44,392 nucleotides of DNA from a virus (lineage: Duplodnaviria; Caudoviricetes), in the IMG/VR virus record IMGVR_UViG_3300012031_000023, positions 1 through 44,392 of that record, one strand, 5' to 3'. Shown one piece after another: positions 12,114 through 40,384 of this stretch; position 1 is the stretch's first letter, and every line of letters begins with the position of its first letter. Below the pieces are notes generated by a model. The model did no database searches and was not told the DNA's origin. It saw only the letters and a list, made by a program, of their open reading frames with translations. The translations under genes and the position numbers were made by a program.

Positions 12114-13763
12114 TTATAGTACGGACAGTCCACGTTTCCACCATGGTGGAATCATTTTCTTAGTTTGGTTGTATAGATACTCAAATGATTCGTCGAGTAT
12201 GTATACCGTACCCCAGTCATCTTTAGATCGAACAATTCGGCCACAACCCTGAATTATTCCAGTAATAGCCTGTCGGTTGTACCAATCTTTAGAAATTTGC
12301 ATTCTACGCTTCGTCCAAGCATCACCGAGGTATGGGTAGGGTACCTTAACAATTAGGGCAAACCTCCCACGATCATCTTTTAAATCCATACCTTCGGTCA
12401 CTGAAGGTGATATTAACAGTGTAGGCTCCTTCTCAGAGCATTCTAGAAATGTTTCTATGGCTTCATCCCTACTAACCTCATATCCGGGTGTATGGTGGAT
12501 TATACGATGACTGGTGTTTATATTCTCAAGAATCCATTTCGCAATCTGGAATGAACCTGTGTGGATTATTCCAGATTCTTCGGTATGATATCCACATACA
12601 TGATTAATGGTCTTCATCATCTTTTTACGATCTGTAGTTCTCTCTTCAGAGTTCCACCCATAATTCATTTTAATTACTGGCTTAAATATCACTTCTCTAT
12701 TATCTTCTGGGAATTCGGAATCCAATGAAATCATTGCTGCATCTTCTGGATCAATTCCAAGGTCTCTACAAAATTCCTCTTTATCAAGGATGGTTGAAGA
12801 CATAAACATGAAACGATTCGCCATAGGTAAGCATATGTTTCGAAAATTATTCTTAGCATAAAGTTCTTTGAACTTAAAACCCACCTTCTCAGATACAAGA
12901 ACATATTTCTTGTCTATTAGTGACATTTCCATTTCCATCAGGTCTTGTAATTGATTTCGGTGCTCTGTTGCAGTAAGTGCATTACGAACAGTTTGTATGT
13001 CCTTCTTATTCAAGGAACCACCCTTAGTCTCTATCGCTGTAACCTGTCTTCTCAATTCAACTGCTTTCGCTTCAACTGCTGGTAAGTAGGACTGCTTGAT
13101 CCAATTTACTGCCTCAGTTGAACTCCTTGCAAATTTAAATTTAATTCCATATTTTTTACAGGTCTTATCAGTTACAGCAATTGAACTAAATTCAACCAGA
13201 TTTGACTCTAAAGCGTGTGCTTCATCAAATACCATCAATTTTCTAGGTGGTATCATTTTTCGTAGGTATGTGAAGTACATTAGGGCCAATGTGTAGTTCA
13301 TTACCGCGTTGGGTGACTTCATTGCTGCTTCCCTTGCCTGTTTGGCTGGACACATCTCACAGGCGGGTTTTATATCCGCACCTACATCACAAGTTGTGTT
13401 CTTTTCTTCACAGGTATAATTACTTCTTCCATATACGGAATACAATAGGTCTTTATCGAAAGATTCTTCGTATTGCCGCTGTAATGTCTTTTGTGGGGTC
13501 AATATAAAGGCATCACCCATGTTACCACTGATGTAAGCACTGAATGCTATGGCAAGTGGGGATTTTCCAGCACCTACGGGTGCCTCAATGAATATATATT
13601 TGACATGTGGTGGCAATGTATCCACCCACTTCATCACATCAATTTGTGATTCTCTTGGTGTGTACTCCGGTAGGGATTTACTCCAACTATCAGACATATT
13701 CCTATTACCAAGGGTGTCAGTTATATGTTGTTCGTTATTTTTTAATATTTCATCGTGTTTCAT
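12114..13763 (-). CDS. DinG/Rad3/XPD-family SF2 DNA helicase with probable 4Fe-4S cluster
   Basis: PRESQ Q-motif, EAPVGAGKS, DEAH, EGMDL and QGCGRIVRSKDDWG; four Cys (YTC..TCD..AC.MCP) in the Fe-S position. Confidence 0.92.
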   Translation of the reverse strand: MKHDEILKNNEQHITDTLGNRNMSDSWSKSLPEYTPRESQIDVMKWVDTLPPHVKYIFIEAPVGAGKSPLAIAFSAYISGNMGDAFILTPQKTLQRQYEESFDKDLLYSVYGRSNYTCEEKNTTCDVGADIKPACEMCPAKQAREAAMKSPNAVMNYTLALMYFTYLRKMIPPRKLMVFDEAHALESNLVEFSSIAVTDKTCKKYGIKFKFARSSTEAVNWIKQSYLPAVEAKAVELRRQVTAIETKGGSLNKKDIQTVRNALTATEHRNQLQDLMEMEMSLIDKKYVLVSEKVGFKFKELYAKNNFRNICLPMANRFMFMSSTILDKEEFCRDLGIDPEDAAMISLDSEFPEDNREVIFKPVIKMNYGWNSEERTTDRKKMMKTINHVCGYHTEESGIIHTGSFQIAKWILENINTSHRIIHHTPGYEVSRDEAIETFLECSEKEPTLLISPSVTEGMDLKDDRGRFALIVKVPYPYLGDAWTKRRMQISKDWYNRQAITGIIQGCGRIVRSKDDWGTVYILDESFEYLYNQTKKMIPPWWKRGLSVL

Positions 13764-13817: not shown

Positions 13818-13846
13818 ATTATATCAGATTGTTTAGAACAAATCAA
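13818..13846 (-). promoter_or_regulatory. Sigma70-like promoter of the helicase gene
   Basis: TTGATT-N17-TATAAT, 55 nt upstream of the ATG at 13763. Confidence 0.7.
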
Positions 13847-13869: not shown

Positions 13870-14445
13870 CCCGAGGAAACCCCGCTGTACGGGGTTTGCC
13901 GACATTTTTGTTATTCAGTTGTTTTTTATTTTGCAAGAAACAAAAACACTTCACTCCGTTCAGTATTTTTGTTTCTTTACTTTATTATTTTTGTTTGTAT
14001 TATTAGGTCTGTAAATGTTTAGTAATGTTTGTTTGAAATGTTTTTAAGAGTTTTATAATAATCCCCCCATTTTGTAACAATTTAATTAAAAATTGTCTAG
14101 GAAATTACCCAATCCAACCTAAGTAGATGAATCTACCTTGCTACTACCATAACAAGATCACTGATTTTACAGATCAGCGACGATCTCCAGTCTTCGTGAT
14201 CATAAAAATGATCCAAGACCGTTTCAACGCGATGAACATTGAATGGGTTTCGATGAGTCGAGGTATGATATATGTTTAGCCTGTCTCGAAAGCATTAACA
14301 ACATATAAATCCCCTCATCCAGACCTTTAGAGCTTTTCTATGGAATAATAACCACATCGCTTATTATTCACCCTGTCCGACATTTGTGCAGCCTGTCCGA
14401 GATATTCAAATTGTATTTGTCTCTTCTCTGTAAAGAAGGGAACGG
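13870..14445 (-). ncRNA. Candidate large structured non-coding RNA (alternatively an R-loop replication origin)
   Basis: No credible ORF; about 11 hairpins, most with G-U pairs on the minus strand that become A-C mismatches on plus; begins just downstream of TATAAATA at 14449-14456. Confidence 0.6.
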
Positions 14446-14448
14446 GAC

Positions 14449-14480
14449 TATTTATACATGCTTGATATGGGTGAAGTCAA
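14449..14480 (-). promoter_or_regulatory. Late promoter TATAAATA, possibly overlapping a sigma70-like promoter
   Basis: TATAAATA at 14449-14456; TTGACT at 14475-14480 lies 18 nt upstream of TATAAA. It points into non-coding DNA. Confidence 0.7.
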
Positions 14481-36041: not shown

Positions 36042-38495
36042 ATGAGTTCTATAAACATAAATGGTCAGTGTTGGGATATACAAGAATCTCCATGGAATGA
36101 TGCTACTATACGCTACTCGGGTCCAGTCACAGGTCCAATATATGGTCTTAGGTTTTCCATTGGAGCTTCTGATTTTTTGGGGTTTGACGCAGAGGTAACA
36201 CTTAGCGTAATATCCGATGCAATACCCGAAGAAGATGGAGGCGCGGGGGTTGTAATAGATACATTTACCGTAGCAGATGGGCAGAGATATCTTTACACCT
36301 TGGAAGATCAAGGCGTGTTTGATGGGTCTACAATAATAGAACAATTTGAGAATGAGTTGATTTTAGACTTTTCTTTTACTAGTGAAGCCTTACCCGATGA
36401 TGGGGGAATATTAGAACAGCCACCAACTCTCACTATATGTGATATAGAAGTGTTAATGTTGACGGAAGAATCGACTATACCTCCTACCCCTACACCATCA
36501 CCTTCATCATCACCCCTACCAACACCCTTACCGGCAGTAGAGTGGGCTGATACAACATCAAATAGTTTCTGGTCTGATGATTCGCCTTCGTGGAGTCCAA
36601 CCTCGCTATATACCGATCCGTGTTGGGAGTATACCACATCTGGGTGGAATGATGGCTCCGACTTAAAGTTTAATACATTTTTTGGAAATACTCTTGTTGA
36701 AGGCTTTAGAGTAACGTTAACGGTAAGCGGTAGTGGTGATACCACTGGCTCAATTAGTGTGCAGGGAAGCGACATCAGTCTGTATGAGGAGGACATATCA
36801 TTGGTTGACGGGGTACCGAACACGATCACCATATTAGCGGGTGGGGAATTTAATATGGCCAACACAACTGTTAATATACAACCAGATTATCAATTCAATG
36901 GTTGGACTGGCACTCTTACAATTTGTGACATAGAACTGTTGACGGCAGCAGTATTCGGGACACCACCACCCGGAGCAGAGGGAACACTTCTACCTTTACC
37001 GACAAGACCATTGGACCCTACACCAACCCCTACACCAACACCTACCCAGACACCCACACCAACTCCATCATTTACACCGGGGCTGGGTGATCCATTTATG
37101 TTCACGGTAGACCCCACTGAAAATAGGCCGCAATTTGGTGGCATACGGGATGTTGGTCTCCTAATTTATGGAGAGGCCGCAGGTTTTATAGATTGGGGTG
37201 ACGGAAGCACACTTTTCCCGTTTATTGCCTCAGCCACAAGTTTCCCCACCTCAGTACTGATGCGACATACATATAGTACCACCTCTGAGAAAACTGTTAG
37301 AATATATGGAACAGCCAGAAGAATAGTACTAGATAGAGAACGATCCGAGCTTACAGTAAAGCGTGTGCTTTCCTTTGGTGATTTAGGTTTGACTAGCCTA
37401 GAAGATACATTTAATGACCTTAGAAACTTGGTGGAGGTTCCAAGTTCACTACCATCTACTGTTACTATTATGAGGAATACGTTCCGGAGCACACAAACAT
37501 TTAACCAAGATATTAGTGGATGGGATACAACAAATGTAACAGACATGTCTTCTACATTCCAAGCCGCACAATTATTTAATCAACCCCTAAATGCTTGGAA
37601 CGTTTCTAATGTTACAAATATGGCCGAAATGTTTAGCTCCGCTAGAGAGTTTGATCAACCATTAGATCAATGGGAAACTGGAAATGTTCTTAATATGTCA
37701 AGAATGTTCCGAGGGTCGGATTTCAATCAAAATATCAATGCGTGGGATGTATCCATGGTTGATAATATGAGTGCAATGTTTGATGGTACCGACTTCTTTA
37801 ACCAACCACTAGACCAATGGGACACCAGTAGTGTTCTTAATATGAGTTCAATGTTCTCTGATAGTGCATTCAACCAACCACTGAATGATTGGAACACCAG
37901 TAGTGTTACTAACATGAGTTCAATGTTCTCCAGCAATTCGGTATTTGATCAACCTCTAGGTCAATGGAACACCAGTAATGTACTCGACATGAATGCAATG
38001 TTCAGATTTGCCCAAACCTTTAACCAACCATTAAATAATTGGGATGTTTCCAGTGTAACAAACATGGGAAGAATGTTTTCCAGTGCCAGTACATTTAACC
38101 AACCACTAGACCAATGGAACACCAGTAGTGTCCTCGACATGTCTGCAATATTTCAGAATGCGTCAGTATTTGATCAACCACTTAATACTTGGAACGTTAC
38201 TAGTGTTACAAATATGACTGATATATTTGCCGGAGCATCTACATTTAACCAGCCACTTAACCTGTGGAACACCTCTAGTGTATCTAGTTTTGCTATGAAT
38301 AGGGCCTTCAACACAGCAACTGCCTTCAACCAAGATTTGTCAAGCTGGTGCGTTGAAGTAATCGGCTCTCTTCCTTTCTGGTTCGACCGTGATACACCTG
38401 CGTGGGTATTACCTAAACCTAATTGGGGTGCAGTATGTCCAACACCTACCCCAACACCTACCCCAACACCAACACCTACCCCGAGTAGTCTTTAA
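36042..38495 (+). CDS. Adhesin / fiber-like protein with BspA/DUF285-type repeats and Pro/Thr linkers
   Basis: GAGG RBS; two related N-terminal domains, IDWGDG (PKD-like), twelve F(N/D)Q(P/D)L..W..S.V..M repeats and PT linkers. Confidence 0.85.
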   Translation: MSSININGQCWDIQESPWNDATIRYSGPVTGPIYGLRFSIGASDFLGFDAEVTLSVISDAIPEEDGGAGVVIDTFTVADGQRYLYTLEDQGVFDGSTIIEQFENELILDFSFTSEALPDDGGILEQPPTLTICDIEVLMLTEESTIPPTPTPSPSSSPLPTPLPAVEWADTTSNSFWSDDSPSWSPTSLYTDPCWEYTTSGWNDGSDLKFNTFFGNTLVEGFRVTLTVSGSGDTTGSISVQGSDISLYEEDISLVDGVPNTITILAGGEFNMANTTVNIQPDYQFNGWTGTLTICDIELLTAAVFGTPPPGAEGTLLPLPTRPLDPTPTPTPTPTQTPTPTPSFTPGLGDPFMFTVDPTENRPQFGGIRDVGLLIYGEAAGFIDWGDGSTLFPFIASATSFPTSVLMRHTYSTTSEKTVRIYGTARRIVLDRERSELTVKRVLSFGDLGLTSLEDTFNDLRNLVEVPSSLPSTVTIMRNTFRSTQTFNQDISGWDTTNVTDMSSTFQAAQLFNQPLNAWNVSNVTNMAEMFSSAREFDQPLDQWETGNVLNMSRMFRGSDFNQNINAWDVSMVDNMSAMFDGTDFFNQPLDQWDTSSVLNMSSMFSDSAFNQPLNDWNTSSVTNMSSMFSSNSVFDQPLGQWNTSNVLDMNAMFRFAQTFNQPLNNWDVSSVTNMGRMFSSASTFNQPLDQWNTSSVLDMSAIFQNASVFDQPLNTWNVTSVTNMTDIFAGASTFNQPLNLWNTSSVSSFAMNRAFNTATAFNQDLSSWCVEVIGSLPFWFDRDTPAWVLPKPNWGAVCPTPTPTPTPTPTPTPSSL
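37500..38348 (+). repeat. Twelve DUF285/BspA-like coding repeats (~72-75 bp)
   Basis: Counted directly from the translation, from FNQDISGW to FNQDLSSW. Confidence 0.9.
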
Positions 38496-38583: not shown

Positions 38584-39183
38584 ATGACTAAATTAATTTC
38601 GTTACAAAAAACATGTGATTTTCTTGGACTATCGAAGTCTGGACTTCGCACAACCCCTGAATCGGTTCTTCCGGTTTACCGCACTGCTGGTGGACACCGA
38701 AGATATAAACTCCAAGATGTGCAAGCATTAATGGGTGAAACCAATACGACTGAAAACCAAACCGACCGAGTAGTGATTTACAGCAGGGTGTCGTCCCACG
38801 GACAGAAGAAATCAGGTGACCTAACTCGACAAAAAGAACGTCTTCTGGGCTATTGTATCAATAAACAGCACACTATCATTGCCAACCTCGAAGAGGTTGG
38901 GTCTGGTATGAACGATAAGCGACCTAAACTTGTTAAGTTGATTTCTATGGCATGTAACGGAGAAATAGATAAAGTAGTAATCGAACACAGAGATAGATTA
39001 ACTCGGTTTAACTTCAACATATTCAAATTATTTCTTCAGCACCACAGCGTGGCAATAGAAGTGGTTTCCGAACCAGAAACATTGAGCTTCGAGGACGAAC
39101 TAGTATCGGATATTATTTCTCTTATGACATCATTTTCAGGGAAAATTCACGGGAAGCGAAGCCACGTAAATGTTAATAAGTAA
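38584..39183 (+). CDS. tnpA: IS607 transposase (serine recombinase with N-terminal MerR-like HTH)
   Basis: RTAGGHRRY, YSRVSS catalytic motif, EVGSGMN..R.KL, HRDRLTRF and ELV.DIISL.TSFS.KIHG.RS. Confidence 0.93.
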   Translation: MTKLISLQKTCDFLGLSKSGLRTTPESVLPVYRTAGGHRRYKLQDVQALMGETNTTENQTDRVVIYSRVSSHGQKKSGDLTRQKERLLGYCINKQHTIIANLEEVGSGMNDKRPKLVKLISMACNGEIDKVVIEHRDRLTRFNFNIFKLFLQHHSVAIEVVSEPETLSFEDELVSDIISLMTSFSGKIHGKRSHVNVNK

Positions 39184-40384
39184 ATCCTACAAGGTTGAAA
39201 TTAAACCTAACAATGTCCAGAAAACTTTTCTAATGAAAAGTTGTGGGGTTGCTCGGCTTGCTTATAACTGGGGTCTGGGTTACACCAAAACTTCATATGA
39301 ACAGGGAGAGAAATATAAAGGCTCTATCGGACTCCACAAGGCACTCTGTGCCATCAAAAAAGAACAATACCCATTCATGTATGAGACAAGTAAACTTGCC
39401 CCACAAAACGCACTGCGTGACTTAGATAAAGCAATGCAGAATTTCTGGCGAGGACTTAAAACAGGAAAGCGTGTGGGCTTTCCTAAGTTTAAATCCAAAA
39501 AATGTTCCAAAAATGCGTTCAGGATTGATGGTGCTAACATTAAAGTCACTGATAATTTCATTAAACTACCAAAATTACCACCAATTCGACTTAAAGAAAG
39601 GGCATACATTCCAACAGAAAACGTTAAATACATGAATTGCACAATCTCACGTAAAATAAACCGTTGGTTTATCACTGTTTCAGTTCAAGAAGAAATATTT
39701 CCGAATAATACCCCAGAAGAAATTATGGGAATTGACTTAGGAATCAAAGAACTGGCCGTTTGTTCAAACGGTGAGGTGTACAAGAACCCAAAATATACTA
39801 ATAAATACGCTAAACGACTTAAACGCGCACAACAGTCGTTAAGTAGAAAAGTAAATGGCTCGAAGAATCGAGCCAAACAACGAGATTGTGTTGCTAAAAT
39901 TTATAATAAAATTAGTAATTCACGAAATGATACAATCAATAAAATGACCAGTAATATCACGAAAACCAAGTGTAGAATACTAGGCATTGAAGATTTAAAT
40001 GTATCAGGAATGACTAAAAATTATAAATTGGCAAAAACAATTACTGATGCGAGTTTCGCAGAAATCCGAAGACAGCTAGATTACAAAAGTGAATGGAACG
40101 GGGGTAGGATTGTCCTAGTGGACAGATTCTTCCCTTCCAGTAAAACTTGCAGTAATTGTAGCTCCGTTCAGGATATGCCGTTAAATAAACGGACATATTC
40201 GTGTGGTTGTGGGTTTGAGATGGATAGAGATTTGAATGCGTCGATTAATTTAGAAAAATATACCGCGAGTTCCGTGGAAATTAAAGCTTATGGAGAGAAC
40301 ATAAGTCTGGCTTCGGTTTCATTAGAAGCAAGCAATCTCAATGAAGTAAGAAATAAACTTGAATTTAAACACCTTCGGTGTTAA
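39170..40384 (+). CDS. tnpB: RNA-guided endonuclease TnpB
   Basis: N-terminal HTH, GFPKFKSK, RuvC-I GIDLG, RuvC-II IEDL, zinc finger SSKTCSNC..CGCG and RuvC-III DRDLNA; D-E-D triad intact. Confidence 0.95.
   Translation: MLISKSYKVEIKPNNVQKTFLMKSCGVARLAYNWGLGYTKTSYEQGEKYKGSIGLHKALCAIKKEQYPFMYETSKLAPQNALRDLDKAMQNFWRGLKTGKRVGFPKFKSKKCSKNAFRIDGANIKVTDNFIKLPKLPPIRLKERAYIPTENVKYMNCTISRKINRWFITVSVQEEIFPNNTPEEIMGIDLGIKELAVCSNGEVYKNPKYTNKYAKRLKRAQQSLSRKVNGSKNRAKQRDCVAKIYNKISNSRNDTINKMTSNITKTKCRILGIEDLNVSGMTKNYKLAKTITDASFAEIRRQLDYKSEWNGGRIVLVDRFFPSSKTCSNCSSVQDMPLNKRTYSCGCGFEMDRDLNASINLEKYTASSVEIKAYGENISLASVSLEASNLNEVRNKLEFKHLRC

What the first reader, a model, noticed from the sequence alone, without database searches (positions are those of the whole stretch)
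13870..14456. Promoter-driven, hairpin-dense ~570-nt non-coding element with a one-strand G-U signature: candidate new large phage ncRNA
SEEN: this is the only large intergenic gap in an otherwise gene-packed window. A perfect late promoter (14449-14456) fires leftward into it, while the downstream helicase has its own promoter (13818-13846). Stems occur almost back to back: 14423-14438, 14343-14369, 14252-14319 (long, branched), 14223-14243, 14190-14219, 14154-14187, 14137-14156, 14121-14138, 14076-14097, 13935-13977 and 13877-13897. In about eight of them the imperfect positions are G-U on the minus strand but A-C on plus (e.g. UUCAAUG/CGUUGAA, CUUGUUA/UAGCAAG, AGGUAGA/UCUACUU, AAGAAACAAAAAUAC/GUGUUUUUGUUUCUU), matching the promoter direction. 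I do not recognise it as tRNA, tmRNA, RNase P RNA or a group I/II intron. KNOWN: phages encode large ornate RNAs such as GOLLD and ROOL. INFERENCE: a structured transcript under selection, possibly a virion/packaging RNA, an anti-defence decoy or a replication primer.
Basis: partly seen in the sequence, partly recalled or inferred. Interest (0 to 1): 0.9.

Follow-up and report, generated by a model that had tools for sequence, protein, structure and literature searches.

The report
Triple-knotted origin RNA of jumbo phages
This gap holds a conserved, uncatalogued non-coding element of giant phages, predicted to be transcribed into a triple-knotted RNA; it ends in a run of G's followed by an A-rich stretch and a DNA-type hairpin, a layout that likely primes phage DNA replication, which is untested.

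Summary
The window is a T4-like phage related to the jumbo phages XacN1 and Xoo-sp13. The gap folds better on the minus strand (z -4.9 against -2.8). I found 25 distinct homologues including the window's own (48% mean identity), all directly upstream of the DinG-like helicase, single-copy in 4 of 4 genomes. Blind covariation recovers the helices. The conserved core is about 360 nt (14420-14061), not 570, with three predicted pseudoknots; no Rfam match. The conserved promoter is sigma70-type (20 of 25), not late (9 of 25). The RNA ends in an invariant AA-Y-GGGG tract, then about 85 nt of A-rich DNA and a long hairpin capped by a DNA-type GA/GNA motif (18 of 25). ColE1 shows the same order: G6, then the same kind of cap about 150 nt later. 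Unrelated structured elements in the same gap also end in G-tracts, as does PA5oct ncRNA004. Best reading (0.55): pre-primer RNA of an R-loop replication origin. Against: no origin skew after coding correction, no ColE1-type second G6 or antisense RNA. Neither transcription nor origin activity is shown.

The parts
14449..14480 (-). Dual promoter: sigma70 -35 TTGACT (14480-14475), 18 nt spacer, -10 TATAAA that is also a T4-type late box TATAAATA (14456-14449); predicted start near 14444
   Evidence: sigma70 form in 20 of 25 homologues, late box in 9 of 25 (one homologue is cut by its contig end). Consensus motifs recalled.
14423..14438 (-). 5' hairpin, sequence variable among homologues
   Evidence: not in the covariation alignment
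14061..14420 (-). Conserved core of the predicted RNA (about 360 nt; 333-449 nt in homologues), multi-junction, three predicted pseudoknots
   Evidence: Alignment A4, blind covariation, pair counts, covariance model
14282..14404 (-). Pseudoknot 1: 14404-14398 pairs with 14288-14282 in the loop of the P5 arm
   Evidence: pair 20-184 rank 10, E=1.1; 21-183 rank 15; 93.6% of cells paired, 3 of 5 pairs with two-sided change
14320..14395 (-). P2 (14395-14390 with 14325-14320) closing P3 (14389-14379) and P4/P4a (14374-14329); two near-invariant G-U pairs
14253..14318 (-). P5 arm (14318-14310 with 14264-14253), strongest covariation
   Evidence: the two top pairs (E<0.01); 98.4% and 91% of cells paired
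14157..14243 (-). Three variable hairpins (14243-14223, 14219-14190, 14181-14157); number and sequence differ among homologues
14122..14156 (-). Hairpin P8 (14156-14137) whose loop (14148-14144) pairs with 14126-14122: pseudoknot 2
   Evidence: 86% of cells paired, 5 of 5 pairs with two-sided change; not among the top pairs of the blind test
14067..14121 (-). P9 (14121-14119 with 14099-14097) whose loop (14107-14102) pairs with 14072-14067: pseudoknot 3
   Evidence: P9 93% paired; pseudoknot 89.5% paired, only one pair with two-sided change, so the weakest of the three
14063..14073 (-). AAAAT then G6 (14068-14063): G-tract at the 3' end of the conserved core
   Evidence: Four G's invariant in 25 of 25; G6 or two G3 runs in 23 of 25
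13978..14060 (-). A-rich, G-poor stretch (55% A, 2% G); candidate DNA-unwinding element
   Evidence: homologues (A+T 0.61-0.88 against 0.54-0.75 for their loci)
13935..13977 (-). Long hairpin capped by tandem GA pairs and a C-GGA-G triloop (cap 13961-13951); candidate single-strand signal for primosome or helicase loading
   Evidence: DNA z -5.8; cap in 18 of 25 on the sense strand, 60-124 nt after the G-tract; background about 0.5-1% per 200 nt; only such hairpin in the window and in G003
13877..13897 (-). GC-rich hairpin, possible terminator of read-through transcript; sequence not conserved
   Evidence: not called as terminator
13818..13846 (-). Separate sigma70 promoter of the helicase gene
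   Evidence: a similar site in 20 of 25 homologues under a loose rule
12114..13763 (-). DinG/Rad3-like helicase gene, constant downstream neighbour
   Evidence: four near-invariant or invariant cysteines

Best explanation
The element is a conserved, covarying, predicted triple-pseudoknot RNA gene that likely acts as the pre-primer of a transcription-primed (R-loop) replication origin of these jumbo phages. Shown: conservation, covariation, position, promoter motif, G-tract, A-rich stretch, capped hairpin. Inferred steps: (1) host sigma70 polymerase transcribes from about 14444 early in infection; (2) the first 360 nt fold into a compact knot that cannot re-anneal and that presents the 3' G-tract; (3) the G-tract nucleates a persistent RNA-DNA hybrid, possibly through an RNA/DNA G-quadruplex, which extends into the easily melted A-rich stretch; (4) the RNA 3' end, trimmed by host RNase H or the phage 5' nuclease, primes leading-strand synthesis; (5) the displaced strand, which has the RNA's sense, folds the GA/GNA-capped hairpin that loads helicase or primosome; (6) the neighbouring DinG-like helicase may unwind the R-loop, as UvsW does in T4.
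For: Same order of parts as ColE1: in NC_001371 a G6 run at 1175-1180 is followed at 1332 by an 11-nt motif identical to the hairpin cap of homologue L088 (that this ColE1 site is the primosome assembly site is recalled, the record does not annotate it). G-tract: invariant in 25 of 25; present on the sense strand of 40 of 75 distinct upstream regions against 2 on the antisense strand, background 3-12%; about 27 of the 40 are this family, the rest include elements the models do not match (XacN1 group, L028/L034, L040/L042/L046, L053/L062, L092/L095). Cap motif in 18 of 25, 3 on the opposite strand; this motif class is far more stable as DNA than RNA and occurs at G4 and RSF1010 ssiA priming sites (PMC13037366, passages). 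Early-type promoter conserved, and T4 oriF/oriG are a promoter plus an AT-rich unwinding element, several T4 origins lying near transcription divergence points (PMC3016281, passages); the element lies about 3.4 kb from such a point here. G-rich stretch needed for ColE1 and mitochondrial CSBII R-loops (PMC6317783, passages). Single copy in 4 of 4 genomes; all 10 true hits of 19 and all 4 of 26 in helicase-blind pattern scans sit upstream of the helicase. Analogue: PA5oct ncRNA004 (619 nt, RNA-seq annotated, 0.02-0.08% of phage reads) follows a sigma70-like site, folds on the sense strand (z -7.8 against -1.9), ends about 30 nt after a G-tract and is followed by AT-rich DNA at a divergence point. 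A 5'-3' nuclease of the PF02739 family is in 4 of 4 genomes.
Against: No direct evidence of origin activity or of transcription. The raw cumulative GC-skew minimum lies within 2-4 kb of the element in 3 of 4 genomes, but after removing the coding-strand effect there is no consistent signal. ColE1 features that are missing: an upstream G5+ run in only 3 of 25, no C5 run in any; an antisense sigma70 site in only 6 of 25, at scattered places; no RNA stretch that matches downstream DNA (best 4 of 25 at 7 letters). The cap motif was defined after seeing the data, is missing in 7 of 25, and the strict hairpin scan missed G002 and G004; a looser hairpin rule gave 21 of 25 but also 47 of 250 shuffles. 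The first G's of the tract help close pseudoknot 3 and in 8 of 25 the tract can pair with local downstream sequence, so it may be structural only. T4 needs no folded RNA for its R-loops. No RNase HI gene in 4 of 4 genomes. A complete relative (G006) and Xoo-sp13 lack this RNA family. PA5oct ncRNA004 is not homologous by sequence or model and has no DinG neighbour.
Confidence: 0.55

Rival explanations
1. A free, trans-acting ornate RNA (scaffold, protein sponge or anti-defence decoy, in the manner proposed for ROOL, GOLLD or OLE); the G-tract is part of its fold and the downstream hairpins are its 3' end or a separate element.
For: Own promoter, three pseudoknots, invariant junction bases; late box in the window's subclade; abundant phage lncRNAs exist (ICP1, PMC7567579, passages; PA5oct ncRNA001/002).
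Against: Never found away from this one locus, which suggests action in cis; unrelated RNAs in the same slot keep the G-tract; the downstream cap is DNA-type; no tRNA neighbours.
Confidence: 0.22
2. A cis-regulatory leader (riboswitch-like, attenuator or antiterminator) that controls read-through into the DinG-like helicase gene.
For: Constant position upstream of the helicase on the same strand; terminator-like hairpin at 13897-13877; pseudoknot 1's 5' strand is also complementary to the G-tract in 22 of 25, which could be a switch.
Against: The helicase has its own promoter; the core ends 200-350 nt before the start codon; the alternative pairing shows only one-sided changes.
Confidence: 0.1
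3. The whole element works as folded single-stranded DNA (origin, recombination or packaging signal) and the transcript only opens the duplex.
For: Covariation cannot tell RNA from ssDNA (PMC5737381, passages); the downstream hairpin is DNA-type; RuvC-like, SbcCD and DinG genes are near.
Against: Near-invariant G-U pairs and multi-way junctions in the core; GNA caps are not a feature seen in the core helices; dedicated promoter right at the 5' end.
Confidence: 0.08
4. A new ribozyme (for example self-cleaving or DNA-nicking) that makes its own primer end or processes the transcript.
For: Compact multi-pseudoknot core with invariant junction bases.
Against: No Rfam ribozyme match; the hammerhead-like letters near 14326-14247 are a covarying helix, not a catalytic core; only 17 invariant columns.
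Confidence: 0.05

Closest known systems
ColE1/pMB1 origin (RNA II pre-primer, RNA I antisense, downstream primosome assembly site)
   Same: Promoter, long folded RNA, G6 near its 3' end, then the same kind of GA-GCG-N-A-GCGA motif on the RNA-sense strand 60-150 nt later
   Different: No sequence or model similarity; no second upstream G6, no conserved antisense promoter; three pseudoknots; phage has its own T4-like genes
Phage T4 oriF/oriG R-loop origins with UvsW
   Same: T4-like phage, promoter plus AT-rich downstream stretch, near a transcription divergence point, helicase nearby
   Different: T4 needs about 100 bp, a MotA middle promoter and no folded RNA (PMC3016281, passages); here a 360-nt covarying RNA, a G-tract and a capped hairpin; DinG-like, not UvsW
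Mitochondrial LSP/CSBII primer
   Same: G5-A-G3+ tract on the RNA strand at the end of a transcript
   Different: No homology; G-quadruplex formation untested here; 2 of 25 lack two G3 runs or G6
ARRPOF, GEBRO, PAGEV (plasmid replication-region RNA motifs)
   Same: Mid-sized structured motifs tied to replication regions; ARRPOF has four pseudoknots (PMC5737381, PMC12990946, passages)
   Different: No Rfam match; phage, not plasmid
GOLLD, ROOL, OLE
   Same: Large ornate phage or bacterial RNA with pseudoknots
   Different: No Rfam match; shorter; no tRNA neighbours; fixed locus
PA5oct ncRNA004 (MK797984 246116-246734)
   Same: Jumbo-phage RNA-seq transcript that ends just after a G-tract and is followed by AT-rich DNA
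   Different: No detectable homology; other neighbours; function unknown

Membership tests
Any Rfam 15 family (GOLLD, ROOL, OLE, ARRPOF, PAGEV, introns, RNase P, tmRNA) | Match to the covariance model at gathering score | tested here: not met
ColE1-type origin | Sequence or structure homology to RNA II | tested here: not met
ColE1-type origin | G-rich tract near the 3' end of a promoter-driven folded RNA | tested here: met
ColE1-type origin | Second, upstream G6 that pairs with the template C-run (feature recalled) | tested here: not met
   G5+ upstream in 3 of 25; no matching stretch
ColE1-type origin | Antisense RNA I with its own promoter | tested here: not met
   Antisense sigma70 site in 6 of 25, scattered; no RNAI Rfam match
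ColE1-type origin | Primosome-assembly-like motif downstream on the displaced strand | tested here: met
   18 of 25; sequence-level only, and the identity of the ColE1 site is recalled
ColE1-type origin | Persistent hybrid, RNase H cut and priming | not testable with these tools
   Needs experiments
T4 R-loop origin (oriF/oriG) | Promoter followed by an AT-rich unwinding element | tested here: met
T4 R-loop origin (oriF/oriG) | MotA-dependent middle promoter | not tested
   The conserved promoter has a sigma70 -35 box; MotA boxes were not searched
Replication origin (general) | Strand-bias switch independent of gene direction | tested here: inconclusive
   Raw minimum near the element in 3 of 4 genomes, no consistent residual signal; T4-like phages copy most DNA by recombination, so none need be expected
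GOLLD/ROOL-type ornate RNA | Location in or near tRNA arrays | tested here: not met
   No tRNA in the window; neighbours are RuvC-like, hypothetical and DinG genes
Hammerhead ribozyme | Conserved unpaired catalytic core | tested here: not met
   The look-alike letters form covarying helix P5; no Rfam match
Expressed non-coding RNA | Transcript detected | not testable with these tools
   No RNA run was listed for this stretch

The most novel reading that the evidence does not exclude
T4-like jumbo phages start DNA replication from a swappable origin cassette whose initiator is an ornate RNA: several unrelated folds (this triple-pseudoknot family, the XacN1 type and at least three more) fill one slot, each delivering a 3' G-tract to anchor an R-loop beside a DNA mini-hairpin loading site and a DinG-like off-switch. 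The knot itself would do the work of an initiator protein.
Probability: 0.4. Interest if true: 0.88.

Novelty: new variant of a known kind. Interest (0 to 1): 0.72.

Why it matters
The RNA family is absent from Rfam and from the papers my searches returned. If it is a pre-primer, it would assign a job to a large ornate phage RNA, a class with almost no known functions, and it would locate the replication origin of a widespread jumbo-phage clade. The question is testable now in cultured phages: XacN1, Xoo-sp13, RAS14 and CM1 carry a conserved, covarying element in the same slot, and PA5oct and Paride carry an analogous transcript. If it is not an origin, it remains a new 360-nt multi-pseudoknot RNA fold suited to cryo-EM.

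Tried and rejected
Rfam at gathering and E-value thresholds: nothing; the weak CrcZ and IsrM hits reflect A-rich composition and a terminator-like stem. blastn of the gap against cultured phages and plasmids: no match. Single-protein locus searches: nothing. No RNA holder listed among sequencing runs; laying four DNA runs showed only the same sequence in pieces. GTDB pattern scan: 23 hits, none a full member; best a partial match over the pattern itself. XacN1-motif scan of IMG/VR: 10 hits, none beyond the motif. GC skew as origin evidence: confounded by gene direction. Guide-like match between RNA and downstream DNA, a lead from note e1-10068885: not found. Antisense RNA I analogue: not conserved. 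Models R1 and R2 recovered held-out members L076 and L015 but not the XacN1 type, the other gap families, PA5oct or ColE1, so shared ancestry of these families is not shown. Small ORFs in the gap (50 aa on plus 14127-14279 and others) were set aside because homologues carry many indels and covary as RNA; their coding conservation was not tested separately. Fremin 2023 supplements: files 3-6 searched without a hit, files 1 and 2 could not be read and three more were too large; their candidates are 29-151 nt, so a fragment of this RNA may be listed there unseen.

Full report
Setting. The window encodes T4-like portal, prohead protease, late sigma factor, SbcCD, baseplate and RuvC-like proteins. 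Its DinG-like helicase is 46-50% identical to those of Xanthomonas phages Xoo-sp13 and XacN1 and Stenotrophomonas phages CM1 and RAS14, all 309-385 kb. The finding lies in the 725-nt gap between a 429-aa hypothetical gene and this helicase; the next largest gap is 192 nt.

The observation. All 11 stems are present and more stable on the minus strand; 9 carry G-U pairs there. The minus strand folds at z -4.93, the plus at -2.82. There is no tRNA, tmRNA or Rfam match.

Homologues. Helicase alignments fetched 78 IMG/VR and 18 metagenome loci, plus three cultured phages; one locus, L082, is identical to the window. Of these 99 loci, 75 distinct upstream regions were long enough to use. I picked 25 distinct family members by blast clustering and by eye; a profile built from them hit 32 of the 99 loci, the extra 7 being copies or near copies. 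Mean pairwise identity is 48%. Two pattern scans that ignore the helicase gave 10 true members of 19 hits and 4 of 26, all upstream of the helicase and all from contigs already found or near-identical to them. Each of four large genomes (271-350 kb) has one copy. None of 23 GTDB hits was a full member.

Structure. On a sequence-only MAFFT alignment (A4), a blind G-test with a tree-based null ranked six helical Watson-Crick pairs and one further stem pair as its top seven; five had E<0.05 (my own R-scape-like script, 40 null alignments). For a named 41-pair structure, 89% of cells pair and 35 pairs show two-sided change, against 35-49% paired when partners are slid; this structure was chosen from these sequences, so the slid control flatters it. 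Three pseudoknots are predicted: 14404-14398 with 14288-14282 (good covariation), 14148-14144 with 14126-14122 (86% paired, five pairs with two-sided change) and 14107-14102 with 14072-14067 (89.5% paired, one covarying pair). Near-invariant G-U pairs in P2 fix the strand; folding z-scores alone do not (12 of 25). A covariance model recovered held-out L076 at 72 bits and a 3' profile recovered L015.

Promoter. The late box doubles as the -10 of a sigma70 promoter. The sigma70 form is found in 20 of 25 homologues, the late box in 9. The conserved timing is therefore likely early.

What follows the RNA. Conservation ends in AA-Y-GGGG (four G's invariant; G6 or two G3 runs in 23 of 25). Then come about 85 nt with 55% A and 2% G and a long hairpin whose cap is two GA steps around a C-GNA-G or GNNA loop. 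The cap pattern, defined after seeing the data, occurs in 18 of 25 on the sense strand, 60-124 nt after the tract, in 3 on the other strand, against about 0.5-1% per 200 nt in genome background. The capped hairpin is unique in the window and in G003; G001 has two related hairpins at the site and two elsewhere; the strict scan missed G002 and G004. Such mini-hairpins are much more stable as DNA than as RNA and occur at G4 and ssiA priming sites (PMC13037366, passages). The ColE1 record has G6 at 1175-1180 and, at 1332, a motif identical to the cap of L088; I recall this as the primosome assembly site, which no call confirmed.

The slot is shared by other RNAs. XacN1, Xoo-sp13 and RAS14 hold a different conserved element with compensatory changes (31 of 101 predicted pairs in three sequences) that also ends in a G-run, there paired to an internal C-run. 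At least three further families occupy the gap, most ending in G-runs. Over all 75 regions the tract is on the sense strand in 40 and on the antisense in 2; about 27 of the 40 are this family and many of the 75 are coding, so the figure is not 40 independent cases. Some relatives (L016, L019, L021, L072, L074) have a short gap with a promoter and hairpins but no such RNA, and complete genome G006 has no copy anywhere. PA5oct ncRNA004, annotated from RNA-seq at 0.02-0.08% of phage reads (PMC7318152, passages), ends about 30 nt after a G-tract and precedes AT-rich DNA; it is an analogue, not a homologue.

Mechanism. I commit to a pre-primer of an R-loop origin (0.55). ColE1 RNA II and mitochondrial CSBII both need a G-rich stretch to form the priming hybrid (PMC5043065 and PMC6317783, passages); T4 oriF and oriG are a promoter plus an unwinding element, shut off by UvsW (PMC3016281, passages). 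That DinG helicases unwind R-loops and that T4 RNase H belongs to PF02739 are recalled; PF02739 genes are in 4 of 4 genomes and RNase HI in none. Every step from transcription on is inferred.

Results against. The raw GC-skew minimum is near the element in 3 of 4 genomes but follows gene direction; after correction no consistent signal remains. There is no second G6, no conserved antisense promoter and no guide-like match to downstream DNA. The tract's first G's also close pseudoknot 3. So this works like a ColE1 or T4 origin by layout but is not a member of the ColE1 family.

Novelty. Nine paper searches that bear on prior description or mechanism plus one on XacN1 returned no description of this RNA in their listings; subscription journals are not covered and parts of the Fremin 2023 supplement (PMC10690425; passages and files 3-6 seen) were unreadable. 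Other papers seen as passages only: PMC7824862, PMC7567579, PMC5737381, PMC8129170, PMC12990946, PMC5778457. Another (e1-5367759) mentions a printed small-phage precedent for such an origin, which I could not check. Verdict: a real, uncatalogued RNA family (about 0.93), function probable but unproven; new variant of a known kind; interest 0.72.

Noticed in passing
L002:4325-4825, L001:4325-4815, L003:4315-4885 (XacN1, Xoo-sp13, RAS14): A second, unrelated ~500-nt conserved structured element in the same gap of cultured phages; 70-83% identity in its core, compensatory changes, terminal G-run paired with an internal C-run; no Rfam match. Best experimental handle.
   Followed up: partly
L039, L040, L046, L028, L034, L053, L062; L054, L058, L060, L061; L092, L095; L017, L079; L069, L080 (upstream of the helicase): Further sequence families of apparent structured RNAs in the same slot; several share a short motif near the 5' end and a hairpin like the P8 loop, and the L054 group has mini-hairpin-capped stems downstream.
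   Followed up: partly
L126:5117-6790 (PA5oct 246116-247789): ncRNA004 followed by about 1 kb of AT-rich non-coding DNA at a divergence point; 98-100% conserved in 10 other records including Paride; candidate origin of that phage group.
   Followed up: partly
window 38584-40384: IS607-type element: serine recombinase gene plus TnpB/Cas12f-like gene, inserted behind a late-promoter box.
   Followed up: no
L008, L009, L083, L084 and protein P0002/P0022: Close relatives carry an intein with a homing endonuclease domain in the DinG-like helicase (901 aa); L041, L047 and L078 look similar.
   Followed up: no
window 15087-15052, minus strand: Inside the 429-aa gene a 30-nt stretch resembles the RNA's 5' motif (E 0.008-0.26); not seen in homologues, probably chance.
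   Followed up: partly
window 36042-38495: 817-aa protein with DUF285 repeats among tail genes.
   Followed up: no
L016, L019, L021, L072, L074 upstream gaps: Short 310-430-nt versions of the gap with a sigma70 promoter and hairpins but no ornate RNA; in L021 the capped hairpins are on the opposite strand.
   Followed up: partly
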